A stretch of 64,000 nucleotides of DNA from Candidatus Anstonellaceae archaeon (GTDB lineage: Archaea; Micrarchaeota; Micrarchaeia; Anstonellales; Anstonellaceae). Below, one piece after another: positions 17,668 through 51,018 of the stretch; positions within the stretch are counted from its first letter, which is position 1; the number at the start of each line of letters is the position of its first letter. The DNA lies in contig JAWAEU010000004.1 of NCBI GenBank assembly GCA_038891055.1, forward strand, positions 18,865-82,864, written 5' to 3'. The translations under genes were made by a program, and so were the position numbers. Below the pieces are notes generated by a model, which did not search any database, was not told the DNA's origin, and worked only from the letters and a program-made list of their open reading frames with translations.

Positions 17668-20196
17668 TTATTTTTCTTCATTTATCTCTAAATTTTTTGC
17701 AATATTGGAAAATACTGGATCGATTAGATCTCCCCCATATTGGAACTGAATGATTTTTCCACCAGCATCTCTTACCGAATAATCTGGCCTTACCACAAGA
17801 TCTTGTAATGCATTAATTAATCTTCTTTGCATATAACCAGATCTGGCAGTTCTAATAGCGGTATTTACTAATGATTCTCTGCCTCCCATCGAATGCTGAA
17901 AATACTCTGTTGGACTTAATCCTTTTTTAAATGAGCTAGAAACAAAACCTCTTGCCATTACTCCCTTATCTCCTTTTTTAAAGTGAGGCAAAATTCTTCC
18001 TCTATATCCTCTGGATGGTCTTTTATTTCTTATAGCCTGTTGTCCAACCATAGAAGCCATTTGAATTGCATTTAATAATGAACCTCTTGCCCCAATAGAA
18101 GCCATTATTATAGAAGTGTTGTTAGTAGTTAGATTTTTCTCTACGATAGAACCAGAGAGATCTCTAGTTTTTGAGGTTAGACTCATTATTTTTTCTTCTA
18201 AGGATTCTTTTAGATTTTTTCCTGGAATAAGCTCCAGGGTCTTATTTTTATATTGAACTATTAAATTTTCTGTTTCTCGCTTTAGATTATCCTGCAATTT
18301 CTTTATTTGCTCCAAAGCTTCTTTTGATAAATTATAATTAGCTAAAGAAACAGAAAATCCATGGGAGGTTATAACTTCTAAAGATACTTTTCCTACTCTA
18401 TCTAAAAATTCCTTAGCTGCGTCAAATCCATCTAAAAGTATTATTTTTTCTAATATTTCACCTAAAGCTTTATTATCTACAGCTCCTTGAATTAAAATAC
18501 CATTTTTTATTATTACGGTATTATCTGGATGATCCGAGCCATCTGGATTTTTTCTTTTGAATTTAGTACTAACCACGCAGTTTAATTCTTTTGGTAAAAA
18601 CATAGAGAATAATAATTTTCCAGAATAATTTGTTTTTCTATCTGGTGGAGGTAGTTTTGTAATTCCGCCAATATACAACAGCCTACAGGCTTCCTCTTTG
18701 CTAAATTCAGCTTCTTCTCTTGTTAAAAACCAACAACCACTAATATAATCCTCGTGGAATTTAATTATTGGTTGCCCGTGCCTTGGAGAGAGAATTTGAT
18801 TATGTACTTTCATTAATATTTCTGCCTCTGCTTTTGCCTCTTCTGATTGAATTACATGTAAATTCATCTCATCTCCATCAAAATCAGCATTATAAGGCGG
18901 ACAGACTATTGGATTTAGCCTTAATGTTTTGCCTGGGAGGATTTTTGCTACGTGACATAATATGGATATTCTATGCAAAGAAGGCTGTCTGTTAAACAGG
19001 ACAATGTCACCATCAATTAACTGTCGCTCAACAATTGAACCTATTGCTAAATTGTTTAAAACTTCAGCTTTTGTTTGAGGAGTAACTCTTACTTTTTTTC
19101 CATCTGGTCTTATTACATATTCTGCCTTGGGATAGCTATCAGAGGCTATGAATTTTTTAACATATTCTATATTCCAAGAGGTTACTTTTAGAGGTACTGT
19201 TAATTCTTTAGCAATATCTAAAGGCACTCCTACTTCATCTATGGATATAGAAGGATCTGGAGAAATTACCGTCCTTGCTGAGAAATTAACCCTTTTTCCA
19301 GACAAATTGTACCTAAATCTCCCTTCTTTTCCTTTAAGTCTTGCTGAAAGTGTCTTTAGTGGCCTACCAGATCTATGTCTTGCTGGTGGAATATTAGCAG
19401 TTTCATTATTAAAGTAAGTGGTAACATGATACTGTAATAATTCCCAAAGATCTTCTATAATTAATTGAGGGGCTCCTGCATTAATATTTGCCTCAAGCCT
19501 TTGATTTATTCTCATAATATCTACTAATTTGTGAGTGAGATCATCTTCAGATCTATCCCCAGTTTCTAATGTGATAGAAGGTCTAACCGATACTGGGGGA
19601 ACGAGTAAACAAGTTAATACCATCCATTCTGGTCTACAATACTTGGGATCGATTCCTAAAGCAGCAACATCCTCATCCGGCACTGCGGCAAGCCAATCTC
19701 GAATCTCAGTTGGAAGCATGATTTCTTTATCTTTGTAAAATGTGGTTGGTTTCAATAATTTTATTTCTGGTAATCTCTGCCCAGTGTAAGGACAGTGAGT
19801 TGGCCTTTTTATTTTGATTTTTAATTCATCCTCACTATCAAGTTGTTTTTTTATTTTTTCTAATTGGTCTTGGGACCATATTATTCTCTTTGTGTAAGGA
19901 GAAGTATTTTGCAAAACATACAATATAGTTTTTGCAAATTCTGGATGAATTACAGGCCTTACTAATTCAATATAACCAAAATGTCCTGGAGAAGTACCTG
20001 CTTTTCCACCAGAGGTTTTATCAATTAATCCTGGGTCAATTACTCCCATTCTTTGATCTACCAATCCTCCCTCAATTGGATAGGAATCATCATTGTAGGT
20101 GTCTGGAACTGTTATTTTCACCACTGCCATTTTTCTTATCATTTCTGGAGAAAACAAGGAGAATTTTATTCTATCAATTTCTTTTGTTATTAACAT
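17668..20196 (-). CDS. rpoA1: RNA polymerase subunit A' (Rpo1N)
   Basis: Active site YNADFDGDEMN, LFNRQPSLH, bridge helix TARSGYMQRRL. Confidence 0.98.
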   Translation of the reverse strand: MLITKEIDRIKFSLFSPEMIRKMAVVKITVPDTYNDDSYPIEGGLVDQRMGVIDPGLIDKTSGGKAGTSPGHFGYIELVRPVIHPEFAKTILYVLQNTSPYTKRIIWSQDQLEKIKKQLDSEDELKIKIKRPTHCPYTGQRLPEIKLLKPTTFYKDKEIMLPTEIRDWLAAVPDEDVAALGIDPKYCRPEWMVLTCLLVPPVSVRPSITLETGDRSEDDLTHKLVDIMRINQRLEANINAGAPQLIIEDLWELLQYHVTTYFNNETANIPPARHRSGRPLKTLSARLKGKEGRFRYNLSGKRVNFSARTVISPDPSISIDEVGVPLDIAKELTVPLKVTSWNIEYVKKFIASDSYPKAEYVIRPDGKKVRVTPQTKAEVLNNLAIGSIVERQLIDGDIVLFNRQPSLHRISILCHVAKILPGKTLRLNPIVCPPYNADFDGDEMNLHVIQSEEAKAEAEILMKVHNQILSPRHGQPIIKFHEDYISGCWFLTREEAEFSKEEACRLLYIGGITKLPPPDRKTNYSGKLLFSMFLPKELNCVVSTKFKRKNPDGSDHPDNTVIIKNGILIQGAVDNKALGEILEKIILLDGFDAAKEFLDRVGKVSLEVITSHGFSVSLANYNLSKEALEQIKKLQDNLKRETENLIVQYKNKTLELIPGKNLKESLEEKIMSLTSKTRDLSGSIVEKNLTTNNTSIIMASIGARGSLLNAIQMASMVGQQAIRNKRPSRGYRGRILPHFKKGDKGVMARGFVSSSFKKGLSPTEYFQHSMGGRESLVNTAIRTARSGYMQRRLINALQDLVVRPDYSVRDAGGKIIQFQYGGDLIDPVFSNIAKNLEINEEK

Positions 20197-20208
20197 ATCA
20201 TCCACCCT

Positions 20209-22047
20209 CTAAGCCTTATCTCTTAAAATCAATCTTGGAAATATTCCAAGAGACTTTATTTCATCCAAAAGTAATTTAAATGCATGGGACATTTCTACCC
20301 AATATAGTTCTGTAGAGTTTTCATCCAATGGAGAAACTAATCTATTTCTAATGTAGTCTTTATAGCCTATGGCTCCTGTTTTTGCGCAAACTAACTGATA
20401 ACTCTTATCAGATTCTTCCAGCAGTCTTTCTTTTAGGAGCATTGCCGCACCATAGCCAATAAGACAATCTCTTTCCATTTCCCCAAATCTCAATCCCCCT
20501 TCTCTTGCTCTTCCTTCGGTAGGCTGGTGGGTTAATAACTGGACAGGTCCTCTTGCCCTAACATGCATTTTATTTGATACCAAATGATGAAGTTTTTGAT
20601 AGTAAATTACTCCAATAAATATTTTTGCTTTTAGTTGCTTGCCTGTTCTACCATCGTACAAAATTTCTTCCCCATAAGGCTCAAAACCTAAACTTTCTAA
20701 TTCTTTTACAAATTTTTCTTCCTTATCACCATTAAATGCAGTAGCATCAGCAAATTCTCCACTCATGCATGCTGCTTTACCAGCTAACATTTCTAAAAGA
20801 TGGCCTGCAGTCATTCTAGAAGGAATAGCATGGGGGTTTAATATTAGATCTGGTACCAATCCATCCTTTGTAAATGGCATATCGTTTTGATGTAACAATA
20901 AACCTATAACTCCTTTCTGGCCATGTCTAGAAGCAAATTTATCTCCATTTTCTGGAATTTTTATCGATCTTATTCTAATTTTTACAAGTTTTGTACCTGC
21001 TACTGACTCAGTTAGAAGGACAGAATCCACAATACCTTCATCTCCAGGTTTTATTGCAAGAGAATTATCTCTTCTTTTTTCTTCAACCATCCCAAAAACA
21101 GTTATTTCTTCCAAAAATCTTGGAGGAGAAGTTTTTCCAACAATTACATCCTTTGTTTTTACTTCTGCTTCTGGAAAAACTAAACCATCTTCACCTAAAT
21201 TTCTATATGAAGCTTCATCTCTATAACCTTGAGCGGTTAGGGGAGGAATTTCGAATTTATCTTTTTGGCCCCCTGGATAACGTCTTTCTTCAGTTTCATG
21301 GGTTTTGTAAAAGACAGACCTTCCAAGTCCTCTATCTACTGCTGATTTGTTAACTACTATTGCATCTGAGGTATTATAACCTGAAAGAGTGGTAATTGCT
21401 ACTACAAAATTCTGGCCTGCTGCATGCTGAAAAAAATTTAAAATTTTATATGGCCTTGTTTGTACCAATGGCTCTTGAGGATAGTACAAAATATGCCCCC
21501 TAGAATCATAGCGTTCATTAAAGTTTAGTAAATAGGTGCCTAAAGATTGTTTTGCCATAGAACAAGCCATAGTAATTCTTGGAGAGGAATTATATTCTAC
21601 AAAAGGCAAAATAGAAACAGTAATTCCAGTGATTGTGACTGGTTCTATTTCTAAATGAGTAGTTTTTTCTGTTATTTCTTCAGGGGTGGTTGCAATAAGA
21701 GCATGTTCTTCTTCATCAGCATCCAAATACTCGATTACTCCCATTGAAACTAGTTTCCCCCAACTGATTTGTTTTTGTTTTAATTTTTCAATTAAATCTG
21801 GTGTTAGTTTACTTTTTCCATTTTCTACTACTATATAAGGCCTTCTGGCTCTTCCTTGGTCAGAATTTACAAAAATTTCTGAAGTTTTTTTACTATAATA
21901 AAAATTAACAGACTTTGAAATATTTCCCTCTCTTCTGGCTTTTATTAAACTTTGGAAATATTTTTCTCCATCATCTACATATCCCAAAAGTTTTCCATTA
22001 TGAAAAACAGCTGTTTTTCCTTTGTATAAATCTAATTTTTTAGCCAT
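20209..22047 (-). CDS. rpoB1: RNA polymerase subunit B' (C-terminal half of split Rpo2)
   Basis: GDKFASRHGQKG, NPHAIPSRMT and GGLRFGEMERDC. Confidence 0.98.
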   Translation of the reverse strand: MAKKLDLYKGKTAVFHNGKLLGYVDDGEKYFQSLIKARREGNISKSVNFYYSKKTSEIFVNSDQGRARRPYIVVENGKSKLTPDLIEKLKQKQISWGKLVSMGVIEYLDADEEEHALIATTPEEITEKTTHLEIEPVTITGITVSILPFVEYNSSPRITMACSMAKQSLGTYLLNFNERYDSRGHILYYPQEPLVQTRPYKILNFFQHAAGQNFVVAITTLSGYNTSDAIVVNKSAVDRGLGRSVFYKTHETEERRYPGGQKDKFEIPPLTAQGYRDEASYRNLGEDGLVFPEAEVKTKDVIVGKTSPPRFLEEITVFGMVEEKRRDNSLAIKPGDEGIVDSVLLTESVAGTKLVKIRIRSIKIPENGDKFASRHGQKGVIGLLLHQNDMPFTKDGLVPDLILNPHAIPSRMTAGHLLEMLAGKAACMSGEFADATAFNGDKEEKFVKELESLGFEPYGEEILYDGRTGKQLKAKIFIGVIYYQKLHHLVSNKMHVRARGPVQLLTHQPTEGRAREGGLRFGEMERDCLIGYGAAMLLKERLLEESDKSYQLVCAKTGAIGYKDYIRNRLVSPLDENSTELYWVEMSHAFKLLLDEIKSLGIFPRLILRDKA

Positions 22048-22071
22048 AAAAATACCACCCTATTTTTTTTA

Positions 22072-23547
22072 TTACTCTGCATCTTTTTCCAATGGATTTA
22101 GACCTAATCTAAACAAGGCTTGTTCTATTTCTTCGCTATCTTCTCTAACTGAAATTTCGCAAAATAAAGCCATGTTTTTGACTAATGCACACGAGGGACC
22201 TTCTGGAGATTCATTTGGACAAATTTTTCCCCAATGTGTGCCATGTAAATCTCTTGCCTTAAAGTGAGGGTGCTTTCTAGAGAGTGGAGAGATTACTCTT
22301 CTAAGATGAGAGATTGAAGAAAGATAAGAAGTTCTATCCAAAAGTTGAGAAACTCCAGTTTGGCCCGCTATCCAATTTCCAGTAGCCATTGAATATTTAA
22401 TTCTGTCAGAAAGAGCATCTGGTCTTACTAATGTTTGAACCATTAACCTTCTTCCTCTTGCATCTGCCCTGGTTGCTTGATATGAAATATCTTTTACTAA
22501 AAATTGAAAGGAATATCTAAATAGTTCCTCCATTAAGTCGCCAGCTAATTTTATTCTTTTGTTTGAATAATGATCTTTATCATCTCCCTTAATTTTTTTT
22601 GCTGCTACTAATATTGCTCGTTGAGCCATGTTGCACAAATAAATTGCTTTTTGTAGCCTATCAGATGGCTCAGTTCCAATATGTGGCAAAAGATAAGTAT
22701 CTAATAATGTTTCTGCTCTTTTTTTACGATATTCTTCTGCCTGACCAGGAGAAGCTTTTTTCCCAATAAAATCTAGTGCTTCTGCACTATCCTTTGTTTC
22801 ATCTAATTCTAAATTTAGCAAAATGTCATTTTTTACTATTTCATCATCGATAAAATGAGCAAAAATTTTATTTTTCTTATCCAAACCAAGTGCCTTAATC
22901 ACGGTGATAAATAGCAAATCTTTTGGAGAAGCTGGAAAAGTACAAAATAAAGTACCATCAGAAGTTCTCTCCACTGTGGTTCTAGCTCTAAAACCTGCAC
23001 GAGTAGAAAAAACTTTAGAGACAACCATTGTATTTTCTTTTTCCCAAGTGGTCATAAGTTTATTTGGAGCCAAATCCTCAATTGAAACCAATGCTCTTTC
23101 AGATCCATTAATTATAAAATAACCGCCTGGATCAGATGGGTCCTCTCCAGCCTTTATCAATTCTTCTTCAGACATATTTTGCAAATAACAAAGGTCAGAC
23201 TTTATCATTACTGGAAGCTCACCTATGTAAGTCTCAGAAAAAACCTTTTTTTCAATTCCATTATAAACCGGAATAATTTCTAAAAAAATCGGAGAGGAAT
23301 ATGTTAAATTTCTTTCTCTTGCTTCTTGCGGATAGATATTTCTTTTAGATCCATCAGCTTCTACTACTTTTGGTTTGTCCAGTCTTATTTTTCCTAAATG
23401 TAATTCAAATCCTTCAATAGATGGTTTTATTACACCAACTCTATCCACTATTTCTTGAATTCCATAATGTATAAATTTATTATATGAATCCAAATGCTGT
23501 TTTACTAAGGAGTTTTCTTTAAAATATGCTTCTAGCAATTCTTTCAT
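22072..23547 (-). CDS. rpoB2: RNA polymerase subunit B'' (N-terminal half of split Rpo2)
   Basis: QHLDSYN, DPGGYFIINGSER, DDKDHYSNKR and HWGKICPNESPEG. Confidence 0.97.
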   Translation of the reverse strand: MKELLEAYFKENSLVKQHLDSYNKFIHYGIQEIVDRVGVIKPSIEGFELHLGKIRLDKPKVVEADGSKRNIYPQEARERNLTYSSPIFLEIIPVYNGIEKKVFSETYIGELPVMIKSDLCYLQNMSEEELIKAGEDPSDPGGYFIINGSERALVSIEDLAPNKLMTTWEKENTMVVSKVFSTRAGFRARTTVERTSDGTLFCTFPASPKDLLFITVIKALGLDKKNKIFAHFIDDEIVKNDILLNLELDETKDSAEALDFIGKKASPGQAEEYRKKRAETLLDTYLLPHIGTEPSDRLQKAIYLCNMAQRAILVAAKKIKGDDKDHYSNKRIKLAGDLMEELFRYSFQFLVKDISYQATRADARGRRLMVQTLVRPDALSDRIKYSMATGNWIAGQTGVSQLLDRTSYLSSISHLRRVISPLSRKHPHFKARDLHGTHWGKICPNESPEGPSCALVKNMALFCEISVREDSEEIEQALFRLGLNPLEKDAE

Positions 23548-27697: not shown

Positions 27698-28294
27698 GTG
27701 AATAAGACTACTAACAAAAATACTGATCACAATATAGCACAAATTGCATATCCTGGAAAATATCTTGGCTCTGAAGAGGAATATGAGCCTGGAGAAGGCA
27801 CATATACTAAAGATGGAGAGATATACTCAGAATTATTTGGAATAATAAAAGTAGAAAACAAAAAAATTTTTGTTCAGGCAAAAAGACCATTAGTAGATTT
27901 TTACATTGGACAGAAAGTAATTGGAAGAGTGGAAATGATTATAGAACCAATAGCTTTAGTGAAAGTGATAACCAAAACTTCTGAAAATAAGAGATTTTCA
28001 TATCAGACTCAAAGTTTTATTTTAAAAATTGAAAACATAAAAAATGGATTTGTGAAAAAAGTAAGTGACGAATATAAAGTTGGTGACATAATAAAAGCAA
28101 AAATAATAGAACTAAAAAATGGAGAGTATCATCTCTCAACTAAAGATGAAGACTGTGGGGTGATAAAAGCTTATAATTCCTCCCCACTCTACCCTCGATA
28201 TCCTCTTACCAAAACCCCAAATAGCTTAATAGACCTAAAAACAAACACAAAGGAATATAGAAAAGTTTCTTCTGATTATTTGTTAAAGATATAG
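27698..28294 (+). CDS. csl4: Exosome RNA-binding subunit Csl4 (Cys-less ribbon)
   Basis: PGKYLGSEEEYEPGEGTY, S1 domain VGDIIKAK, GVIKA...EYRKVSSDY; next to rpoL. Confidence 0.9.
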   Translation: MNKTTNKNTDHNIAQIAYPGKYLGSEEEYEPGEGTYTKDGEIYSELFGIIKVENKKIFVQAKRPLVDFYIGQKVIGRVEMIIEPIALVKVITKTSENKRFSYQTQSFILKIENIKNGFVKKVSDEYKVGDIIKAKIIELKNGEYHLSTKDEDCGVIKAYNSSPLYPRYPLTKTPNSLIDLKTNTKEYRKVSSDYLLKI

Positions 28295-31185: not shown

Positions 31186-31914
31186 TTATATAATAGTAAA
31201 ATAAATTCTTCGATTATTTTTTCCTTTGTTTTCTGCCTTTATAAATGTTATTTTGCCTACTTCAGAGGTATTTTTAACATGAGTTCCTCCATCTGCTTGA
31301 ATATCCACTCCTTCTATTTCAACTATTCTAATTTCTTCTAATTCTTCCAAAATATTTTTTGAAAAAAGTTTTATTATGCCCTCCATTTTTAGGGCTTGCT
31401 GTTTTGAAACAAAATAAGTTTTAACTTCGTGAGCTTCACTACAAATTTCGTTTGCCTTTTTAATTGCATTTTCTAAAAATTCTTTGTCAAACTTTGGAGT
31501 ATTAAAATCAAACCTTGATTTATCAACATCTAATTGATTTCCTGTAATTAGTGCACCTTGACTAAAAAGTACTGCTGATAGAACATGTGCAGCAGTATGC
31601 ATTCTCATGAGTTTGTATCTTCTCTCCCAATCTAATTCTAAAATAACTTTTTGACCTTTTTGTAGATTTTGAGAAGAAGAAATAAAATGGATTACATCAC
31701 CATTATCTTTTCTTACATCTAAAACATCAACTTGAAAAGTTTTATCCTCTAAACTTTTTATTCTACCTCTATCCGAAGGCTGTCCCCCAGAAGTAGGATA
31801 AAAAATGGTTTGATCTAAAATTAGTTTATTTTCCTGCACATCCAAAACAGTTGCCTCAGCTTCCTTCAAATAAGAATCAAAGAAATATAATAACTTTGTC
31901 TTTGTTTTTTGCAT
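31186..31914 (-). CDS. alaXM: AlaX-M alanyl-tRNA editing protein
   Basis: LDQTIFYPTSGGQPSDRG, MRMHTAAH and DGGTHVKNT. Confidence 0.93.
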   Translation of the reverse strand: MQKTKTKLLYFFDSYLKEAEATVLDVQENKLILDQTIFYPTSGGQPSDRGRIKSLEDKTFQVDVLDVRKDNGDVIHFISSSQNLQKGQKVILELDWERRYKLMRMHTAAHVLSAVLFSQGALITGNQLDVDKSRFDFNTPKFDKEFLENAIKKANEICSEAHEVKTYFVSKQQALKMEGIIKLFSKNILEELEEIRIVEIEGVDIQADGGTHVKNTSEVGKITFIKAENKGKNNRRIYFTII

Positions 31915-34035: not shown

Positions 34036-34905
34036 TTATTTGGACTTTTTAGAGGACTTTGTTTTTCTCTTTTTTTCTTTTTGTTCCTTTTTAATTTCTT
34101 CTTTATTTTCTTCTCTAATGGCTGGTTCGGCATTAGAATTTTGTGAAATTTGAGTTTGTGGTTCTTTATTCTCATTATTGCTGGCAGTATTATTTTCTAA
34201 TTCTTGTTTTTCTGTTTGAGAATTTTGCGAGGTTTGATCTTCTTGTTGTTTTATTTCCTGATCTTTTTCTTTGTTAGATTTTAAGGATTCTTCTTCTAAC
34301 AGCTCAGAACAAGAATTTTCAAATTCTTCTAAGGTTGGGCGAAATTCATCATAAGTAGAAATTTTATTTGAAGACATTGCTAATTCTCTAGCCAAAAGCC
34401 AAAAAATTAGGGATAAAGATTTTCTTCCCTTATTATTACAAGGAATTATCCAATCAATAAACATAGTATAATTATCAGTATCACAGAGGCCAATAGTTGG
34501 GATTCCCATCTCTCCACATTCTAATACTGCTTGTTTTTCACCTTTAGGATCGCAAATTATTACCAAATCAGGTTCAACAAAATCAGCTCTCCCTACATTT
34601 GTAAACATCCCTGGAATAAATCTTCCACTAATTACTTTTATAGAGGTTAATCTTTCAAAAACCTTTGCAGCTACTGAAGAATAAGTTCTTGAAGCAACTA
34701 CATAAACTTTTTTTGGATCATATTTTGAGATTATTTTAGCAGCAATTCTAATTCTCTCATCAATTACTCTCAAGTCTAAAACATATAAATCGTCGCTTCT
34801 TCTTTTGAAAATAAATTTCTGCATATCTATAGTTCTCATTCTTGTGCCTATATGAATTCCACTCTCCAAATATTTTTCTTGTTTTATTAACAAACCATCA
34901 GACAT
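34036..34905 (-). CDS. rps2: 30S ribosomal protein uS2 with long polar C-terminal tail
   Basis: YLESGIHIGT, GRFIPG, DTDN and PCNNKGRKSL. True start MSDG after GGTGGTG. Confidence 0.96.
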   Translation of the reverse strand: MSDGLLIKQEKYLESGIHIGTRMRTIDMQKFIFKRRSDDLYVLDLRVIDERIRIAAKIISKYDPKKVYVVASRTYSSVAAKVFERLTSIKVISGRFIPGMFTNVGRADFVEPDLVIICDPKGEKQAVLECGEMGIPTIGLCDTDNYTMFIDWIIPCNNKGRKSLSLIFWLLARELAMSSNKISTYDEFRPTLEEFENSCSELLEEESLKSNKEKDQEIKQQEDQTSQNSQTEKQELENNTASNNENKEPQTQISQNSNAEPAIREENKEEIKKEQKEKKRKTKSSKKSK

Positions 34906-34941
34906 CACACCACCTTTAAAATTTATAAGCACTAAAAACTT

Positions 34942-35015
34942 TGGGGCCACCGAGATTTGAACTCGGATAACCAGCACCCCAAGCTGGCAGGATAGCCAGG
35001 TTACCTCATGGCCCC
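34942..35015 (-). tRNA. tRNA-Pro(GGG)
   Basis: Acceptor GGGGCCA/TGGCCCC, anticodon arm CCAGC-TTGGGGT-GCTGG, T loop TTCAAAT. CCA not encoded. Confidence 0.95.
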
Positions 35016-35022
35016 AGCTTAG

Positions 35023-35220
35023 CTACAATTTATTATACTTGATTACTTCATCCATTACCTCCACGTGTGATAAAAACATTCGTCTACAGCAAATCCTTTT
35101 GACTTTTAAGGAATTTAAAACATCTGCTGGTTTCTCTCCGCTCTTTACTCTTTGTTTGTATTCTTCCCAAAGTTGTGCTATTGGTGCCCCACAACTAAAA
35201 CATCTTATTGGAAAATACAT
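35023..35220 (-). CDS. rpoN: RNA polymerase subunit N (Rpo10)
   Basis: PIRCFSCG and CCRRMFLSH. Confidence 0.97.
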   Translation of the reverse strand: MYFPIRCFSCGAPIAQLWEEYKQRVKSGEKPADVLNSLKVKRICCRRMFLSHVEVMDEVIKYNKL

Positions 35221-38334: not shown

Positions 38335-38943
38335 CTATTTTGCTTTTTTATCTTTTTCCGCTTGCTTTTGTTCTTGAGAAGGTTTAGCGGTTGCACCTGC
38401 AGCTTTAGCAGCTTTTCTTAGTACACCTACAGTCATACCCTTTCTTCCAGTTGTTCTAGTGCGCTGTCCTCTCACTTTCTTAGAATAGGTGTGTCTAAAT
38501 CCTCTCCATGTCTGCGAATCTTTTTCGTGCTGAATATCTTGTTTTACTGCAAATATCAAATCATTTCCTAAAAGATGTCTTGGTTCATTTGAGATATAAT
38601 CCCTCTGCCTATTTAAATAGAATTTTGGAACCCCAAATTCTAATGGGTGATAGATTATATATTCTAATCTTTGAAGTTGTTCTTCTGATAATTCCCCTAT
38701 TAAAGTTTGAGGACTGATTGATAAATCTTTTGCTGCAATATTTGCTAAAACTTCGGATAAATTGTATCCTATTCCCTTTATACTATCCAAAGCTCTATTT
38801 AGAGGTAAATTTCCCTTTATATCTTTTGAAGCTATTCTAACAACTCCCTTAATCTCCTTTCCTTCTGGAGACTTTAAAATCTCCTCTTCTTTTTTCTTTT
38901 GAATTGGTTTTTGTTTTTTTGGTTTTTTTATTCCCATTCCCAT
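38335..38943 (-). CDS. rps13: 30S ribosomal protein uS13
   Basis: IKGIG, LNRQRD, WRGFRH and VRGQRTRTTGR. True start lies downstream of tRNA-Ser. Confidence 0.96.
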   Translation of the reverse strand: MGMGIKKPKKQKPIQKKKEEEILKSPEGKEIKGVVRIASKDIKGNLPLNRALDSIKGIGYNLSEVLANIAAKDLSISPQTLIGELSEEQLQRLEYIIYHPLEFGVPKFYLNRQRDYISNEPRHLLGNDLIFAVKQDIQHEKDSQTWRGFRHTYSKKVRGQRTRTTGRKGMTVGVLRKAAKAAGATAKPSQEQKQAEKDKKAK

Positions 38944-38958
38944 GATAACCACCAAAAA

Positions 38959-39058
38959 CGCCGAGGATGGGATTTGAACCCATAAGCCCTTGCGGGCACA
39001 CGCTTGCCGTACGAATTTTGCTCCAGGCGTGCGCACTACCAGGTTATGCGACCTCGGC
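38959..39058 (-). tRNA. tRNA-Ser(GGA) with a 16-nt intron at 37/38 (39005-39020)
   Basis: Acceptor GCCGAGG/CCTCGGC with G discriminator; CACGC-CTGGAG[CAAAATTCGTACGGCA]A-GCGTG; long variable arm. Confidence 0.92.
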
Positions 39059-39952
39059 ATTCTTTAGCACGATTTTTGGTAATGCCACAATTGAATTATT
39101 TTTTAAATTTTTTAAATCTTGAGCAGAACATACACTCAAGCCAATAGCAAATATCTCTCCAGTAGAATCTACTAGAAAGACATAGCTATTTTTAGCAAAA
39201 AAATCCTTAGCAGCTGCCACACCGGATTTTGCCAGCGGCAAACCGCGACAGACTGCTTCAACGGATTTTTGCTCTACATATATCTTTGGTAATAAAATAA
39301 TTTTGTCAAAAGGCTTTATTAATCTTTTTATTGGCTCACTATTTAGAGTTTGCTTATAAAATTTCCAAGCATCTATTAGGTCATAAAGATTACAACAATC
39401 CTCTTCCTCCACAAGTCCGACTGCTATTCTTCTTAGTTCTAAAAGCTTTCCGCAGCCAAAATATTTTCCGATATCCTCTGCCAAAGTTCTAATATACACC
39501 CCTGCCTGCACTTTTGCCCTAAACAAAATTTTTTTTCCTTCTATTTCTAAGGCTTCTAAATTGTAGATTTCTCTAATTCTTTCTTTTTTTGCTACTGCAG
39601 ATTCTTTTGGAGGAATTTGTTTTATTTTACCTATAAATTTTTTAAAAATTTCTTGTACCTCTTTTAAATCTTTTGGTTTATTACAAACCCTCATTACACC
39701 TATATAAGTCTTTGACTGCATAGTTAAAAATCTCAATAATCTTGTAGCTTTGTTTAACCCAATAATCAAAACTCCAGAAACCTTTGGATCTAAAGTTCCA
39801 CTATGGCCTGCTTTTTTTAAACCAAGAAGTTTTTTTATATATGCGCTAATTTCATGAGAGGAGGGACCTCTTGGTTTATCTAATAAAATAAAGCCACAGT
39901 TTAGGAGTTTTTGGAGTTCTTGGTCAGCTACTGGAGTAGTTTTATGCTGCAT
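39044..39952 (-). CDS. cbf5: Pseudouridine synthase Cbf5/TruB
   Basis: DKPRGPSSHE, GHSGTLDPKVSG, Q.PPKESAV, ELRR and a PUA domain. Confidence 0.95.
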   Translation of the reverse strand: MQHKTTPVADQELQKLLNCGFILLDKPRGPSSHEISAYIKKLLGLKKAGHSGTLDPKVSGVLIIGLNKATRLLRFLTMQSKTYIGVMRVCNKPKDLKEVQEIFKKFIGKIKQIPPKESAVAKKERIREIYNLEALEIEGKKILFRAKVQAGVYIRTLAEDIGKYFGCGKLLELRRIAVGLVEEEDCCNLYDLIDAWKFYKQTLNSEPIKRLIKPFDKIILLPKIYVEQKSVEAVCRGLPLAKSGVAAAKDFFAKNSYVFLVDSTGEIFAIGLSVCSAQDLKNLKNNSIVALPKIVLKNAEVA

Positions 39953-40723: not shown

Positions 40724-41056
40724 TTAAGAGGGATTAGCTGGTAGATTTAAAAATTTGTGATATTTGGAAGGTATCTGTTCTAAAGTTATCTGATTTGAGC
40801 GCAAAAGTTCTTTATATTTTATTAATCTTCTTGCCTCTTTAGCAATTAGCTGGCCTGCGTAAGGTCTATTTGGAACTTTTTTTGATTTTGCCAAAGACTT
40901 TGAGAAAGAAGTTCCTGCCAATTTTTTATTAGTTAGTGCACAGGAAAATTTTTTTTGTTTTGTTCTTTTTTTAAATAATATTGTGGTCCTGTTGGAGGGA
41001 GTTTTTCTTTTTAACTTTCTTATAGAATTAGATCTATTTTTTGGTATCATTTTCAT
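40724..41056 (-). CDS. rpl34e: 50S ribosomal protein eL34 (Zn ligands eroded)
   Basis: RSNS.RK...KTP, CALTNKKLAG and PNRPYAGQL. Confidence 0.9.
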   Translation of the reverse strand: MKMIPKNRSNSIRKLKRKTPSNRTTILFKKRTKQKKFSCALTNKKLAGTSFSKSLAKSKKVPNRPYAGQLIAKEARRLIKYKELLRSNQITLEQIPSKYHKFLNLPANPS

Positions 41057-44689: not shown

Positions 44690-45385
44690 CTAAGATGAAG
44701 CTTTATCAAAACTTGCCTTTAGCCTAGCAATCTCCTCTCCTCTTGAGCCCATCTCTGACCAATCTCCTCTATATCTTAATTTGTTTAGATTATCCAATGC
44801 TTTAATGGTTGCTCTTGCGACATTTAAAATATTTCTTGTCCTACCCCTTGAAAATGACCAAACATTTTTAACTCCTGCATAATAGAGTACTTTTCGCACT
44901 ATTTGATTTGCTGCAATTCCTATTCCTCTTGGAGCTGGTTTTAATATAACTTCAACAGAACCTTCCTTCCCCCTTGTTTTTATTGGTATAGAATGAGGAG
45001 ATTTAAAAGTATCCTCCCAAGAGCCATTACCTCTTGGTACAAAAATAATATTAATCTTTGCTTTTTTTGTTGCACTCTCTATTGCTGGTTTTGCTTCTTC
45101 TGATTTTCCTACACCTAAACCTACATGGCCGTTCTTATCTCCTACAATCACCACTGCTCTATATTGGGTTTTTCTACCGCAGTCAGTCATTCTTTGAGTT
45201 GTTCTAATTTCAAGTGTTTCTGCCTCTAGATTTGGAAGTAAAAAATCCACAATTTGTGGTTCAAGTATTTTTTTTCCTTGGCTAAAAATCTCCTCGATAG
45301 AAGAAATTTGACCTGATTTTACTAATCTTCCAATTTCTGTTTTTGGTTCCCAATTTTCAAGATTAACAATATTTTTAAGCTTCAT
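44690..45385 (-). CDS. rps5: 30S ribosomal protein uS5
   Basis: WEPKTEIGRLV, QRMTDCGR and PAPRGIG. Confidence 0.97.
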   Translation of the reverse strand: MKLKNIVNLENWEPKTEIGRLVKSGQISSIEEIFSQGKKILEPQIVDFLLPNLEAETLEIRTTQRMTDCGRKTQYRAVVIVGDKNGHVGLGVGKSEEAKPAIESATKKAKINIIFVPRGNGSWEDTFKSPHSIPIKTRGKEGSVEVILKPAPRGIGIAANQIVRKVLYYAGVKNVWSFSRGRTRNILNVARATIKALDNLNKLRYRGDWSEMGSRGEEIARLKASFDKASS

Positions 45386-47388: not shown

Positions 47389-47775
47389 TTAGTATACAAA
47401 TGCTATTAATCTTCCTCCTAAATTTTGTTTTTTTGCTTCTTCATTAGTCATCAAACCCTTTGGAGTGCTAACTATCAAAAATCCAAAACCAAGACCTGGG
47501 ATATATTTTTGTTCCCATTCTACCCATTCTGTTTTTTTAATAGCGAATCTTGGTTTTATTGCACCGCAATTATTTATCCTTCCAATAAGCTTTACTTTAA
47601 AAAAGCTCTTTGGACCTCTATCCACAAATTCAAATTCTCCTATATAATTTTTTTGTTGTAAAATCTTTAAAATCTCTTTTATTAATTTTGAATACTTAAC
47701 TTCACATTCTTCTTTTCCGTTCATTTCATGTGTTTTTATTGTATTTAGAGCATCAGCAACTAAATCCTTTGACAT
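47389..47775 (-). CDS. rps8: 30S ribosomal protein uS8
   Basis: GRINNCGAIKPR, STPKG and GGRLIAFVY. Confidence 0.96.
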   Translation of the reverse strand: MSKDLVADALNTIKTHEMNGKEECEVKYSKLIKEILKILQQKNYIGEFEFVDRGPKSFFKVKLIGRINNCGAIKPRFAIKKTEWVEWEQKYIPGLGFGFLIVSTPKGLMTNEEAKKQNLGGRLIAFVY

Positions 47776-47787
47776 ATTCACCATCCT

Positions 47788-47967
47788 CTAGCTATATTTT
47801 CTAAAACCTAACTTCTCTGCAATTTCTCTAAAAACTCTTCTTGAGACTTGCAAACCATAACATCTAATTAATCCTCGAGCATTTCCAGTGATTATACACT
47901 TTCTTTTACCTTTACCTTTTTTTCTATATTCAAATGGAATTTTTCTATTTTTGTTTTTCTTTCCCAT
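47788..47967 (-). CDS. rps14: 30S ribosomal protein uS14 (C-minus form)
   Basis: GKG.RKC, GLIR.YGL and FREIAEKLGFRKYS. Confidence 0.95.
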   Translation of the reverse strand: MGKKNKNRKIPFEYRKKGKGKRKCIITGNARGLIRCYGLQVSRRVFREIAEKLGFRKYS

Positions 47968-47977
47968 AAAACTCACC

Positions 47978-48499
47978 TTAAATAATTTCTACTCCAAAAT
48001 TTTTCTTCACAAATTCTATCCCTTCCTCTTTTGTTATAAGATGTTTTTTAGAAATTTTAGACTTTTTGATTTTTTTGTTTTTTGTTCTCCATCCGCCCTT
48101 TCTTTTTAGAGAAACACAAACATCAAACCCAATTATACCGATTTTTGGATCGTATTTTATTCCTGGAAAATGAATGTATTCTGGTATTCCAAAAGAAAAA
48201 TTCCCAAATTTGTCAAAATTCTTTTTTGAGAGTTTAAACTCTTTTACTTTTAGTGCCTTTTTTAGAAATTCCACTGCCTCTTGATTTCTTAGAGTTACTT
48301 TTGTTCCAATAGGATCTCCTTTTTTAATATGAAAAACTGGATTTCTAACTTTTGCTAATGTCTCTACTGGTTTTCTAGAAGTAAGACGACTAAGTAATAA
48401 CTTAGCGTTTTCTAATTCTACTCCTGCCTGTCCAACACCTATATTTAGAGTAATCTTTTCAATTACTATCTGGCGCATTGGATTTTGTGTTTTGTCCAT
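47978..48499 (-). CDS. rpl5: 50S ribosomal protein uL5
   Basis: NPMR, NIGVG, FDKFGNFSFGI and YDPKIGI. Confidence 0.97.
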   Translation of the reverse strand: MDKTQNPMRQIVIEKITLNIGVGQAGVELENAKLLLSRLTSRKPVETLAKVRNPVFHIKKGDPIGTKVTLRNQEAVEFLKKALKVKEFKLSKKNFDKFGNFSFGIPEYIHFPGIKYDPKIGIIGFDVCVSLKRKGGWRTKNKKIKKSKISKKHLITKEEGIEFVKKNFGVEII

Positions 48500-48504
48500 A
48501 AAAA

Positions 48505-49206
48505 TCAACCACTAAATTCATTATCTATTACCATGATATAATTGAGAGAGGTTAAAATTTCTTTTTTGTCTTTATCTTCTAAAACTGCAATCGAACCCAT
48601 CGAACCCCTCTGCTCTACTATGTTTTTTAGTATAGCGAATTTTCCAGCATGCTTGCCTTTAAATATATAACAATTTGCACCTGTTTGCAATTTTATAAGA
48701 TTTACAAGTTTGTAGTGTGGAAGTGAAATTTTTACACTATCTCCAACTTTTACATTATTGTCTGCAAGGATATTTTTGCCATCATGTAGCGAAATGGAAA
48801 TTCTTCCCTTTTTAATCACATGTTTACCAATTACTTTGCAGTATTTAACAGTGGATTTAGAAATCTCATTTGCTTTTAATTTTCCATTTATTATCTCCAT
48901 TCGCCAAAATTTATTTAGTGGTTTAATTTCTATTATATCTAAAAAGCCAATTGGTCTTTTTGGATCCTTTGAAACTCTTCCATCTACTAATACATAGCCT
49001 TTCTTTATTAATTTTCTTGCTTCAGAGAAATCTTTAGCTAAACCTAATTCATCTCTGATTAAAACAGCCAGGGCTAAAGACTCTTTCTTTGGATGAGGAC
49101 CTGCCCTAGGAGAAACTAAAAACACTTTTTGCTTCTTTTTTCTAATAGGCAGAACAGATTTAACCGCTATTCTCTTTAAATGATAAGACTTACCTTTTTT
49201 TGCCAT
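48505..49206 (-). CDS. rps4e: 30S ribosomal protein eS4
   Basis: HLKR, AGPH, VDGR and LHDGKN. Confidence 0.95.
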   Translation of the reverse strand: MAKKGKSYHLKRIAVKSVLPIRKKKQKVFLVSPRAGPHPKKESLALAVLIRDELGLAKDFSEARKLIKKGYVLVDGRVSKDPKRPIGFLDIIEIKPLNKFWRMEIINGKLKANEISKSTVKYCKVIGKHVIKKGRISISLHDGKNILADNNVKVGDSVKISLPHYKLVNLIKLQTGANCYIFKGKHAGKFAILKNIVEQRGSMGSIAVLEDKDKKEILTSLNYIMVIDNEFSG

Positions 49207-49207
49207 T

Positions 49208-49588
49208 TTATTCACCTACTTTTTCTTCTTTTACGTTAGTTGTTTTTTCCCCTTCTTTTTCAGAAGGCTTTAGGATTTTTTCAATCAATCTTACTGCAGC
49301 TGGTCTTAGTGGGAATAATTTTTCCACTCCCCTCGAATTTTTTATAGTTATTCCTTCTACAAATAATCTTAACTTTTTATAATCAACTTCTATTACAGAT
49401 CCTGTTTTTCCTTTGAATTTTCCTTTTATTATTTTTACTTTATCTCCTTTTTTTATGGTCAGAGATCTTTTACCAACTTTTTGAGCTAGCTCTTTTGCTA
49501 AACGCACTTTTAAAAATTTTTTTCTAATATGTAGAGGAGCATTAAAAAATGCTTTTCTTTGTTTTCTTGGTTGTTTTGAGCAAGTCAT
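49208..49588 (-). CDS. rpl24: 50S ribosomal protein uL24
   Basis: SKQPRKQRK, APLH and KOW motif GDKVKII.GKFKG. Confidence 0.96.
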   Translation of the reverse strand: MTCSKQPRKQRKAFFNAPLHIRKKFLKVRLAKELAQKVGKRSLTIKKGDKVKIIKGKFKGKTGSVIEVDYKKLRLFVEGITIKNSRGVEKLFPLRPAAVRLIEKILKPSEKEGEKTTNVKEEKVGE

Positions 49589-49601
49589 AAAATCACCAAA
49601 T

Positions 49602-50000
49602 TTATACTACACCTGAGGCAATTGCAGCTACTTTTGGAAATCTTTCTGCAACTTCTCTTGCTATCACTCCTTTGACCTCAGTGCCTACTGGTAAGCCATT
49701 TTCATCAATAATCACAGCAGCATTATCTTCAAAGCAAATTCTCATTCCATTTGGCCTTCTATACATTTTTTTCTGTCTTACTATCAGTCCTCTAAGAACT
49801 TTTCCTTTCACTTTTGATTCTCCTTTTTTTACTGAAACTACTACTACATCTCCAACCCCTGCTTTTGGATACATGCTATGATGAGCCTTTGCTCCCTTCA
49901 CTCCTATTATTTGTACTATTTTTGCACCTGAATTATCTGCACAAACTAAAGTTGAGCCTATGTGCAATGCTTTTGTAATTTTTGAGCCTAAACCTTTCAT
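49602..50000 (-). CDS. rpl14: 50S ribosomal protein uL14
   Basis: CADNSGAK and FEDNAAVI. Confidence 0.97.
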   Translation of the reverse strand: MKGLGSKITKALHIGSTLVCADNSGAKIVQIIGVKGAKAHHSMYPKAGVGDVVVVSVKKGESKVKGKVLRGLIVRQKKMYRRPNGMRICFEDNAAVIIDENGLPVGTEVKGVIAREVAERFPKVAAIASGVV

Positions 50001-50021
50001 AACAAACACCCTATGAATTAT

Positions 50022-50447
50022 CTACTTTTTGGTTTTTTGCTCTGTTTGTGGTTCTGTGATTTCTTTGTTTTTATCTTCCTTTGATTCTCTTTCTGCAAAA
50101 CCACCATGTTTTTTCATATGTAGTACTTGAGCTTCGTCCCTTTCTTTAACTTGGCCTGGTAATAAATGACCTGGACCTTTCTTTAATATTTTAGTCACTA
50201 TCCACGCTTTTGTTTTTGAAATTTTTCTACATTCTGCAATTTGAACGACATCACCAACCTGTGCATTGATATTTTCTGGATTGTGAGCTGCTATTTTTGA
50301 AATTTTTCTTGCATATCTTTGATATTTTGGAATATATGAAACTAAGTCTCTCTGGACAATAACTGTTTTCTTTGCCTTATCTGAAACAACTACCCCAGAT
50401 AATATCAAACCCCTTGTGGGATAGATTCCTTTTCTTTTTTTTGCCAT
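50022..50447 (-). CDS. rps17: 30S ribosomal protein uS17
   Basis: GVVVSDK, PKYQRY, AHNP and ECRKISKTK. Confidence 0.95.
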   Translation of the reverse strand: MAKKRKGIYPTRGLILSGVVVSDKAKKTVIVQRDLVSYIPKYQRYARKISKIAAHNPENINAQVGDVVQIAECRKISKTKAWIVTKILKKGPGHLLPGQVKERDEAQVLHMKKHGGFAERESKEDKNKEITEPQTEQKTKK

Positions 50448-50707
50448 ACTCTCAACCAACTTTTATACAATTTTTTTATTCTATCTTCTGGCCTACAAAT
50501 GGCCAATGAAAGATTTAATATATGATTTTTATGTTTTAATACCAAACCTTTTTTTGGTAGGATCAAATCTTTATTTTTTGTTCTAAGTACGACAGTATTT
50601 AGAGTTTCAAATATTATTTTTCCCCTTTTACCTACTAACAAAATGTTTGGACTAGAGATTACTTTCACATCTAAGCCTATCCAGTTTTTTAACATTATCT
50701 CATCCAT
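50405..50707 (-). CDS. rnp1: RNase P protein component 1 (Rpp29)
   Basis: IGLDVKV, GKIIFETLN, PK and RPEDRIK; synteny. Confidence 0.88.
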   Translation of the reverse strand: MDEIMLKNWIGLDVKVISSPNILLVGKRGKIIFETLNTVVLRTKNKDLILPKKGLVLKHKNHILNLSLAICRPEDRIKKLYKSWLRVWQKKEKESIPQGV

Positions 50708-51018
50708 TAATTTATAACCTCCTTTTTTATTTCTATTGAATCTGCTAAATAACCCATAGAAACCAATATTTCTTTAATTTTTGAAATATGATTTCCTTGA
50801 AGCACAATTAAACCTTCTTTCACTGTTCCGCCACAAGCTAATTTATTTTTTAATTCTTTGGCTGTTTGCTCTAATTTATCTTTTTCTACACCCTCCACAA
50901 TAGTGACTAATTTTTTGAATTTCTTTTTTGTCGCATAAACTTTTAATCTAATATTTTGTTTTTCTATTGCATCTGAGACAATCTCTTTCATTAGGTCATC
51001 TTGCAATATATTTCCCAC
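50707..51018 (-). CDS. Translation initiation factor aIF1 (SUI1)
   Basis: KLVTIVEG, LKNKLACGGTVK and LQGNH. Confidence 0.92.
   Translation of the reverse strand: MGNILQDDLMKEIVSDAIEKQNIRLKVYATKKKFKKLVTIVEGVEKDKLEQTAKELKNKLACGGTVKEGLIVLQGNHISKIKEILVSMGYLADSIEIKKEVIN

What the first reader, a model, noticed from the sequence alone, without database searches (positions are those of the whole stretch)
17668..51018. Systematic loss of zinc ligands across the transcription, translation and RNA-decay core
Seen: structural Cys ligands are replaced or deleted in at least seven unrelated proteins: RpoA' (two sites), RpoB', Csl4, uS14, eL34, uS5 and aIF1, plus the uS17 N-terminus. AlaX has CGGTH changed to DGGTH. 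This is not general Cys avoidance: paired Cys persist in extracytoplasmic parts (SecY loop, signal peptidase, pilins, lipoprotein) and in RpoN. Established: bacterial C-minus ribosomal proteins are usually Zur-regulated paralogues, and single Cys-less ribbons occur in some archaea such as halophiles. Inference: here the copies in the main operons are themselves C-minus, suggesting a constitutively zinc-sparing (or thiol-protected) information machinery.
Basis: partly seen in the sequence, partly recalled or inferred. Interest (0 to 1): 0.8.

Follow-up and report, generated by a model that had tools for sequence, protein, structure and literature searches.

The report
Clade-wide loss of structural zinc sites
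A small group of tiny hot-spring archaea (Micrarchaeota) has permanently replaced the zinc-holding cysteines in about half of the zinc sites of its RNA polymerase, ribosome and associated factors, while its closest relatives keep them all, which makes it a natural test of how much structural zinc a cell needs.

Summary
Against 20 relatives and solved structures, the window's RpoA' (both sites), RpoB', Csl4, uS14, uS5, aIF1 and eL34 lack their Cys ligands. Elsewhere in the genome eL24, eL43, Spt4, TFE, Nop10, PriS and two IleRS knuckles are also lost.

Of 14 sites scored, G000 has lost 12. The eight genomes from other genera of its family have lost none. The losses are shared only with one sister genus. 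Ten map to a stem branch of 0.12 substitutions per site, where about 0.16 are expected.

All the genes are single-copy, and the zinc-less segments are under purifying selection.

The loss is not total. RpoN, RpoP, TFB, eS26, eS27, eS31, eL40, eL42, aIF2-beta, Rpp21, MCM and several synthetases keep their sites.

The AlaX and uS17 items are older traits of the order or family. Zinc uptake genes remain.

The cause (zinc scarcity, thiol stress or drift) is unresolved. Similar partial syndromes recur in other DPANN, and this scan noted one before on other DNA.

The parts
17668..20205 (-). rpoA' (Rpo1N), 845 aa, single copy
   Evidence: Pfam RNA_pol_Rpb1_1 to _5. One match in G000.
19981..20022 (-). 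Former RpoA' zinc site 1. Residues D62, S65, S72, H75 stand where relatives have C, C, C, H.
   Evidence: Alignment with 17 relatives. 76 of 79 other archaeal loci have CCCH. Solved structures have Cys at the aligned positions.
19783..19902 (-). Former RpoA' zinc site 2. Residues S102, T105, C138, T141 stand where relatives have CxxC...CxxC.
   Evidence: In the broad sample every other locus that covers the site keeps both knuckles.
20209..22047 (-). rpoB' (C-terminal half of subunit B), 612 aa
   Evidence: Pfam RNA_pol_Rpb2_4 to _7.
20323..20388 (-). Former RpoB' C-terminal zinc ribbon. Residues C554, T557, S572, D575.
   Evidence: The same state occurs in G001 and G005. The ribbon was lost independently in G018. 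In the broad sample it is Cys-less in L173 and degraded in L166.
27698..28294 (+). csl4 (exosome cap subunit), 198 aa
   Evidence: Pfam ECR1_N. Orthologues found in 17 of 20 relatives.
28175..28243 (+). Former Csl4 C-terminal zinc ribbon. Residues N160, P166, D179, T182.
   Evidence: Alignment. CCCC in 12 of 17 relatives. Lost in G001 and G017. Two or three ligands are gone in G005 and G011.
40724..41056 (-). eL34. Former C4 site now C39, T42, I71, E74 (window 40835-40942).
   Evidence: Pfam. Alignment. Also lost in G005, G011, G014, G017 and G018.
44690..45385 (-). uS5. Former Cx4CxCx3H knuckle now N120, D125, F127, H131 (window 44993-45028).
47788..47976 (-). uS14. Former CxxC...CxxC now C27, T30, S45, V48 (window 47833-47898).
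   Evidence: C4 is kept in all 16 relatives outside genera g1 and g4.
50707..51018 (-). aIF1 (SUI1). The N-terminal zinc knuckle is replaced (residues 5-16, window 50971-51006).
   Evidence: Pfam. Alignment. Cys are kept in all 14 relatives scored outside g1 and g4.
50022..50459 (-). uS17 without the N-terminal CxxCxxH motif. This is a family-wide, older loss.
31186..31914 (-). AlaX. H106/H110 are kept. D208 (window 31291-31293) stands where solved AlaX has Cys. This is an order-wide trait.
35023..35220 (-). rpoN (Rpb10) with an intact C7, C10, C44, C45 site. It serves as an internal control.

Best explanation
**What it is.** A subclade of Micrarchaeota, comprising the window's genus g1 and sister genus g4, has converted many structural Zn(Cys)4 or Cys3His sites into metal-free segments. 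The genes affected are single-copy and essential for information processing. The conversion happened in steps and is irreversible.

**Order of events.**
- First wave, on the common stem: all three zinc sites of the RNA polymerase clamp (two in RpoA', one in RpoB'), plus uS14, uS5, eL24, eL34, eL43, aIF1, PriS and most of Csl4.
- Second wave: Spt4, TFE, Nop10 and the IleRS knuckles.

**How it works.** The Cys were replaced mostly by Asp, Asn, Ser, Thr and Lys. These presumably hold the former knuckles together by hydrogen bonds and salt bridges (inferred). The new sequences are conserved (shown).

**Effect.** The zinc and thiolate content of ribosome and polymerase is roughly halved (counted from sequence).

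**Driver (inferred, not shown).** Most likely a lineage-specific change in the metal and thiol regime of these geothermal-water cells. The candidates are poor zinc availability and thiol-reactive stress. Either would make Cys4 sites a liability wherever the fold can do without them.
For: - **Loss matrix.** G000 has lost 12 of 14 scored sites. G001 has lost 10 of 12, G002 7 of 9, G011 9 of 11 and G005 10 of 14. The 8 genomes of the five other genera of the family have lost 0 (10 to 14 sites scored each).
- **Tree.** Built from 17 ribosomal-operon proteins, 3071 columns. g1+g4 form a clade (SH-aLRT 100) that is sister to g3, which keeps every site. The stem is 0.123 substitutions per site.
- **Burst.** Ten sites were lost on that stem. 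About 0.16 are expected from 11 loss events over 14 sites and 8.42 units of tree outside the clade.
- **No back-up copies.** No Cys-bearing paralogue was found in a 97% complete genome.
- **Selection.** dN/dS is 0.05 to 0.24 in the former zinc segments within the genus.
- **Direction.** Compared with sister-genus genome G003, 15 of 39 G003 clusters keep at most 2 Cys in G000. In the reverse direction the figure is 5 of 35.
- **Catalytic zinc sites kept.** ThrRS, carbonic anhydrase and GTP cyclohydrolase II keep their ligand-type motifs.
- **Habitat.** Five runs labelled hot springs metagenome, from two studies, hold 78% or more of the sampled words. One of them may be the source.
- **Recurrence.** An independent DPANN genome (that of L177) lacks RpoA' site 1, uS14, eL24 and eL43 Cys together.
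Against: - About half of the sites are kept, so there is no general intolerance of zinc or Cys.
- ZIP and ZnuA-type uptake genes are present in G000, as in zinc-site-bearing relatives. Gene content therefore shows no altered zinc economy.
- No arsenite pump (Acr3 or ArsB) was found in g1 or g4. No other gene-content correlate of thiol stress was sought.
- The clade was singled out because of the feature, so the burst statistic is post hoc.
- dS is near saturation, so the dN/dS values are rough.
- The second-wave losses are shared by g1 and G011 but not G005. This conflicts with the ribosomal-protein tree, which groups G005 with G011 (SH-aLRT 99 under two models). The AU test of the alternative gives p = 0.04.
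- No metal content was measured.
Confidence: 0.6

Rival explanations
1. Neutral ratchet. The lineage went through a period of weak selection (small population, symbiont lifestyle, falling G+C). During it, marginally useful structural zinc sites decayed by drift. Compensated versions were then frozen in. There was no selection for sparing zinc or protecting thiols.
For: - G+C of the ribosomal region falls along the clade: 43% in G005, 36% in G011, 31% in g1, against 45 to 58% in the other genera of the family.
- Partial losses occur independently in other small-genome lineages: G014, G017, G018, G019, and the genomes of L177, L190 and L166.
- Uptake genes are unchanged.
- The set of sites kept and lost shows no obvious logic in the ribosome.
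Against: - The stem on which 10 sites fell is short, 0.123 substitutions per site. It is not a long fast-evolving branch.
- G016 (34% G+C) keeps all 13 sites scored, whereas G018 (55% G+C) lost four. G+C does not predict loss.
- Strong purifying selection acts on the new sequences.
- All three zinc sites of one structural module, the polymerase clamp, fell together. Clamp membership of these sites is recalled from Pol II structures.
Confidence: 0.3
2. The sites still bind a metal through changed ligands (Asp, His, Ser, water). Zinc is kept and only the thiolates were exchanged.
For: - His is retained at RpoA' H75 and uS5 H131.
- Asp appears at several former Cys positions: RpoA' D62, uS5 D125, RpoB' D575, AlaX D208.
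- For AlaX this reading is plausible, because both His of the HxxxH motif remain.
Against: - Most sites keep at most one or two possible ligands, alongside Thr, Val, Ile, Lys, Pro, Phe or a deletion. Examples: eL24 D,S,K,T; uS14 C,T,S,V; eL34 C,T,I,E; eL43 C,S,-,A; Csl4 N,P,D,T.
- These cannot form a tetrahedral zinc site. This is inference from coordination chemistry, not a measurement.
Confidence: 0.07
3. Artefact. The cause would be a chimeric bin, sequencing error, or an unusual genetic code that hides Cys codons.
For: None found.
Against: - The same replacements appear in five separately assembled genomes: G000, G001, G002, G005 and G011.
- Reading frames are open under table 11, with normal Pfam matches.
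- Contamination is 0.02% and completeness 97%.
- Cys is used normally elsewhere in the same genes and genome.
- Near-identical DNA is present in five runs.
Confidence: 0.01

Closest known systems
Bacterial C-minus (zinc-free) ribosomal protein forms such as S14, L31, L33 and L36
   Same: Zinc-ribbon ribosomal proteins whose Cys ligands are replaced while the protein stays functional. uS14 is affected in both cases.
   Different: In bacteria the C-minus form is usually a second copy, switched on by Zur when zinc is scarce. Here each gene is the only copy and sits in the main operon. The set extends to archaeal and eukaryotic-type proteins (eL24, eL34, eL43), RNA polymerase, Spt4, TFE, aIF1, Csl4, Nop10 and PriS.
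Zinc and non-zinc forms of bacterial ribosomal protein S4, spread by horizontal transfer (PMC3087516; I saw only the search listing and the start of the abstract)
   Same: Zinc-bearing and zinc-free versions of one essential ribosomal protein exist in related organisms, possibly through allele exchange.
   Different: That case is one protein in bacteria. Here at least 15 sites changed in one archaeal clade. Exchange of alleles is only suspected, from the mosaic similarity between G011 and g1.
Canonical archaeal and eukaryotic RNA polymerase clamp with three structural zinc ions (Pol II Rpb1 and Rpb2; archaeal structures 8cro, 4qiw, 2pmz, listed)
   Same: Same subunits, domain order and flanking motifs. 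The GHFG motif after site 1 and the FGEMERD motif before the RpoB' ribbon are conserved.
   Different: All three Cys clusters are gone. In a sample of 79 other archaeal loci, site 1 is degraded in 2 and site 2 in none. Among the 150 best library representatives, 119 show CCCH. Of the other 31, most carry C-D-x-H/Y-type or other partly degraded patterns, a few did not align across the site, and none aligned fully Cys-less.
Earlier notes of this scan on other DNA: e1-5304383 (genus-wide loss of structural zinc sites in a tiny archaeon; a later check found that part of it fell) and e1-5263520 (Saccharibacteria beta' without zinc sites)
   Same: Several structural zinc sites of the core machinery are lost in a small-genome lineage while relatives keep them.
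   Different: These are different genomes and different sets of sites. The first lost eS31, which is intact here. They are unchecked AI notes, used as leads only.

Membership tests
Zur-type C-minus ribosomal protein paralogues (bacterial zinc-sparing response) | Cys ligands of the zinc ribbon replaced | tested here: met
   uS14, eL24, eL34, eL43 and uS5.
Zur-type C-minus ribosomal protein paralogues (bacterial zinc-sparing response) | Coexists with a Cys-bearing (C-plus) paralogue in the same genome | tested here: not met
   tblastn with Cys-bearing orthologues finds one locus each in G000, which is 97% complete. Family searches also give one match each.
Zur-type C-minus ribosomal protein paralogues (bacterial zinc-sparing response) | Expression repressed by a zinc-sensing regulator | not tested
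   No regulator sites were examined. The genes lie inside the main ribosomal operons.
Archaeal RNA polymerase subunit A' (Rpo1N) | Rpb1 domains 1 to 5 in order, split A'/A'' | tested here: met
   Pfam.
Archaeal RNA polymerase subunit A' (Rpo1N) | Two Cys clusters (CxxCx6CxxH and CxxC...CxxC) in the clamp | tested here: not met
   The two sites read D,S,S,H and S,T,C,T.
Spt4 (RpoE'') | N-terminal C4 zinc ribbon | tested here: not met
   G000 Spt4 has 0 Cys. The four positions read D,T,T,A. The NCBIfam match covers only the C-terminal part, at 33.7 bits against a cut-off of 50.
Spt4 (RpoE'') | C-terminal part conserved, and gene position next to eS26 as in relatives | tested here: met
   Pfam Spt4 matches residues 26 to 67. 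Alignment with 15 relatives whose sequences were taken from the eS26 loci.
uS14, short zinc-bearing type | Ribosomal_S14 domain | tested here: met
   PF00253, 40.7 bits.
uS14, short zinc-bearing type | CxxC...CxxC | tested here: not met
   The positions read C27, T30, S45, V48.
AlaX / AlaRS editing domain | HxxxH plus CxxxH zinc motif | tested here: inconclusive
   HxxxH is present. CxxxH reads DGGTH here and in 15 of 17 sequences recovered in the order; the other 2 read DGGCH. Solved homologues have C. Asp may still bind zinc.

The most novel reading that the evidence does not exclude
De-zincification is being actively selected in this geothermal lineage, and zinc-less alleles move between related lineages by recombination. 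Four second-wave losses (Spt4, TFE, Nop10, IleRS) carry the same replacement residues and flanking changes in g1 and in G011, but not in G005, against the ribosomal-protein tree. The similarity of G011 to g1 is local to the former knuckles. If so, the clade is evolving towards a minimal zinc and thiolate quota under zinc scarcity or thiol-reactive stress. Its fully zinc-free RNA polymerase clamp would then be a designed-by-nature template for metal-independent transcription machinery.
Probability: 0.15. Interest if true: 0.8.

Novelty: new variant of a known kind. Interest (0 to 1): 0.6.

Why it matters
**Why specialists would be surprised.** Structural zinc sites of RNA polymerase and of archaeal and eukaryotic-type ribosomal proteins are treated as near-invariant. 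Here one clade lost all three sites of the polymerase clamp, together with the zinc ribbons of Spt4 and TFE, and half of the ribosomal sites. Sister genera kept every one of them.

**What it makes testable.**
- It provides matched natural pairs, a zinc-bearing and a zinc-free orthologue at 60 to 85% identity.
- These pairs allow direct tests of what the zinc sites contribute to folding, stability, assembly and redox sensitivity.
- They also allow tests of which residue patterns can replace a zinc knuckle.

**Wider point.** Partial versions recur in other DPANN lineages, and this scan has noted similar cases in other small-genome microbes. The clade is therefore a clear case for asking whether cellular zinc quota is an evolvable trait.

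Tried and rejected
- **Gene-content correlates.** ZIP (PF02535) and ZnuA (PF01297) are present in G000 as in relatives. CDF (PF01545) was found only in G003. Acr3/SBF and ArsB were not found in g1 or g4 but occur in 6 of the other 16 genomes. None of this discriminates between the explanations.
- **eL37 and TFS.** Not found in any of 5 family genomes with PF01907 and PF01096, so they could not be scored.
- **G+C as predictor of loss.** Rejected. G016 is low in G+C and keeps all its sites. G018 is high in G+C and lost four.
- **Placing G011 next to g1.** The ribosomal-protein data favour G005+G011. The AU test gives p = 0.04 against the alternative, and the group was named after the tree had been seen. 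The sliding-window identity of IleRS shows only local similarity of G011 to g1 around the knuckles. The question is unresolved.
- **First regex for site 1 in library representatives.** It was too loose and gave meaningless patterns. It was replaced by pairwise alignment.
- **First broad alignment.** It timed out, and my first ligand numbering was off by one. Both were redone.
- **Automated matrix.** It flags RpoA' site 2 in G015, G017, G019 and G020, but only because three extra non-ligand Cys columns or truncated loci were included. Their four ligand columns read CCCC.
- **Literature.** Four full-text searches found no description of concerted zinc-site loss in Micrarchaeota or DPANN. Passages on 'zinc' in PMC12605026 and PMC11698992 said nothing on uS5.
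- **Not attempted.** Structure prediction was not run, because the tool returns no side-chain contacts and cannot show metal independence.
Full report
**Setting.**
- The window is G000:C4:18865-82864. The genome is 881,671 bp in 9 contigs, about 30% G+C, 97% complete.
- The best named matches of its RpoA' in the species-genome collection are Candidatus Micrarchaeota MAGs, at up to 68 to 70% identity. The organism is therefore a Micrarchaeote (DPANN).
- Near-identical DNA (78% or more of sampled words) occurs in five runs labelled 'hot springs metagenome', from two studies. One of them may be the source.

**Check of the observation.**
- I aligned each protein with orthologues from 20 relatives. 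These comprise 2 genomes of the same genus (g1), 10 of five or six other genera of the same family (f1), and 8 of other families of the order (handles).
- RpoA' site 1 reads D,S,S,H where relatives have C,C,C,H. RpoA' site 2 reads S,T,C,T, and the RpoB' ribbon reads C,T,S,D.
- uS14 reads C,T,S,V. uS5 has GNGSWEDTFKSPH in place of GCGSWECxCxxxH.
- aIF1 lacks its N-terminal knuckle, and eL34 reads C,T,I,E. Csl4 reads N,P,D,T.
- Solved archaeal polymerases and ribosomes have Cys at the aligned RpoA' and uS5 positions.
- Two items are older traits. The uS17 N-terminal motif is missing from the whole family. AlaX has Asp before GGTH or GGCH in 17 of 17 sequences recovered in the order, whereas solved AlaX and AlaRS have Cys.

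**Rest of the genome.**
- I called 949 ORFs; Cys makes up 1.24% of residues.
- I fetched the complete sister-genus genome G003 (840 kb, 46% G+C) and paired 499 reciprocal best hits at 48.6% identity.
- Of 39 two-knuckle Cys clusters in G003 orthologues, 23 are fully kept in G000 and 15 keep at most 2 Cys. In the reverse direction 27 of 35 are kept and 5 keep at most 2. Proteins with more than 4% Cys were excluded from this count, and clusters overlap.
- Pfam and NCBIfam scans covered 207 small ORFs and 65 larger cluster-bearing ORFs. With the pair alignments they give the census below.
- Further losses: eL24 (0 Cys), eL43, Spt4 (0 Cys), TFE, PriS, two IleRS knuckles, one PolD DP2 cluster, NurA, and a deleted C-terminal ribbon in a CBS protein. 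Nop10 keeps one Cys.
- Kept: RpoN, RpoP, the TFB ribbon, Rpp21, eS26, eS27 (with a CxC first knuckle), eS31, eL40, eL42, aIF2-beta, aMBF1, a NusA-like KH protein, MCM, MetRS, DnaJ, UvrA, topoisomerase I, ribonucleotide reductase, the Rad50 hook, ThrRS, AlaRS, and the other PolD clusters.
- eL37 and TFS were not found in any of five family genomes.
- Each affected gene is single-copy in G000.

**Distribution among relatives.**
- In a 14-site matrix, G000 has lost 12 of 14 sites (two or more ligands gone). G001 has lost 10 of 12, G002 7 of 9, G011 9 of 11 and G005 10 of 14.
- The eight genomes of the other f1 genera have lost 0, with 10 to 14 sites scored each.
- Outside the family, G018 lost 4 (RpoB', uS5, eL24, eL34). 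G017 lost 3 (uS5, eL34, Csl4). G014 lost 3 (uS5, eL24, eL34). G019 lost 1 (RpoP).
- The automated flags for RpoA' site 2 in G015, G017, G019 and G020 are artefacts of extra columns. Their four ligand columns read CCCC.
- A tree of 17 ribosomal-operon proteins (3071 columns) puts g1 and g4 in one clade (SH-aLRT 100) that is sister to g3. The stem is 0.123 substitutions per site, and the topology is the same under the C20 mixture model.
- Ten sites fell on that stem. With 11 loss events on 8.42 units of tree outside the clade, 0.16 are expected (Poisson about 3e-15). This figure is post hoc, because the clade was picked for the trait, and relatives are not independent.
- PriS is also Cys-less in g1 and both g4 genomes.

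**A second wave, and a conflict.**
- Spt4 and TFE, Nop10 and the two IleRS knuckles are lost in g1 and in G011 but kept in G005. The replacement residues are the same and some flanking changes are shared.
- The ribosomal-protein tree nevertheless groups G005 with G011 (SH-aLRT 99 under both models).
- Holding G011 with g1 costs 35 log-likelihood units, with p-AU 0.04.
- In IleRS, G011 is overall closer to G005 (73.5%) than to G000 (68%). It is closer to G000 only in the windows that hold the former knuckles.
- Descent, recombination and convergence remain open.

**State of the zinc-less genes.** Within the genus, dN/dS in the former zinc segments is 0.05 to 0.24. dS is 0.6 to 2.3, near saturation. 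The segments are therefore maintained by selection, not decaying.

**How unusual is it?**
- Among 79 other archaeal RpoA' loci, 76 have CCCH at site 1 and one lacks coverage. Two read C,D,S,H (L177 and L190, both DPANN-type MAGs).
- Site 2 is intact in every other locus that covers it.
- The RpoB' ribbon is more variable. Of the 63 loci in which the FGEMERD anchor was found (of 77 with an RpoB' C-terminal match), 49 have two CxxC, 12 have one and 2 have none; the printed list shows L173 fully Cys-less and L166 degraded.
- Among the best 150 representatives of a 1.84-billion-protein library, 119 read CCCH. The other 31 mostly carry C-D-x-H/Y-type or other partly degraded patterns. A few did not align across the site, and none aligned fully Cys-less. 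The query was itself zinc-less, which biases this list.
- The genome of L177 has also lost the Cys of uS14, eL24 and eL43. Those of L190 and L166 have lost eL24. Those of L173 and L157 keep all three.
- Multi-protein zinc-site loss has therefore arisen more than once in DPANN. The clade studied here is the most extreme case I saw.
- This scan noted a similar genus-wide loss on other DNA (e1-5304383, of which part later fell) and zinc-free polymerase sites in Saccharibacteria. I used these only as leads.

**Cause.**
- Gene content gave no answer. ZIP and ZnuA-type uptake genes are present in G000. CDF efflux was found only in G003. Acr3 and ArsB were not found in g1 or g4.
- G+C falls along the clade (43%, 36%, 31%) but does not predict loss elsewhere.
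- All three zinc sites of the polymerase clamp, and the ribbons of the two clamp-binding factors Spt4 and TFE, are gone, while RpoN, RpoP and TFB keep theirs. Clamp membership is recalled from Pol II and archaeal structures and was not tested here.
- I therefore commit to a selected or at least selectively maintained, stepwise conversion to metal-free folds. It roughly halves the zinc and thiolate load of ribosome and polymerase. The driver is unresolved between zinc scarcity, thiol-reactive stress and a drift-driven ratchet.

**Literature.**
- Four full-text searches returned no paper describing this pattern in Micrarchaeota or DPANN.
- For PMC3087516, PMC5861453 and PMC13090322 I saw only the listings and the starts of the abstracts.
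- For PMC12605026 and PMC11698992 I saw only the passages containing 'zinc'.
- The bacterial C-plus/C-minus paradigm (Makarova et al. 2001) is recalled and was not retrieved.
- Supplements were not consulted.

Noticed in passing
G000 contig C1:180213-180416 (Spt4), C1:116206-116880 (TFE), C9:6277-6414 (Nop10), C4:89783-92839 (IleRS); all outside the window: These four zinc-less states are shared with G011 but not with G005. They carry identical replacement residues and, in Spt4, a shared DDDPYLQ insertion. The ribosomal-protein tree nevertheless groups G005 with G011. This may be allele exchange, a wrong tree or convergence.
   Followed up: partly
G000 contig C9:7202-7378 (outside the window): eS27 keeps four Cys, but its first knuckle is CxC instead of the usual CxxC (a one-residue deletion).
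   Followed up: no
window 38335-39060, 34036-34977, 51991-52674: Several ribosomal proteins are much longer than their Pfam domains. In uS13 (241 aa) the domain covers residues 75 to 207. In uS2 (313 aa) the best-matching Pfam stretch covers residues 135 to 197 (two stretches matched). uL22 is 227 aa. This suggests lineage-specific extensions.
   Followed up: no
G000 contig C4:84960-86018 and C1:71731-73455 (outside the window): ORF translations with the repeated peptide FNPTLGAFLT mark a CRISPR array read as protein. Cas2 (two copies) and Cas4 genes are present, so this tiny genome carries CRISPR-Cas.
   Followed up: no
G000 contigs C2:1190-4732, C6:31712-35770, C6:22318-26292, C8:4614-6509 (outside the window): Very large proteins with 5 to 13% Cys (for example 151 Cys in 1180 aa), presumably disulfide-rich surface proteins. 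They contrast with the Cys loss in cytoplasmic zinc sites.
   Followed up: no
window 17668-23547: Both large polymerase subunits are split (B''/B' and A'/A''). Other Micrarchaeota noted earlier in this scan have a fused A subunit.
   Followed up: no
whole genome; window as sample: A genome of 30% G+C whose DNA is found in runs labelled hot springs metagenome. This is an unusual pairing if the site is hot. Temperature is unknown.
   Followed up: no
locus L023 (G014), uS17 region: Part of the uS17 gene of relative G014 reads as X (masked N in the stored genome), so that site could not be scored there.
   Followed up: no
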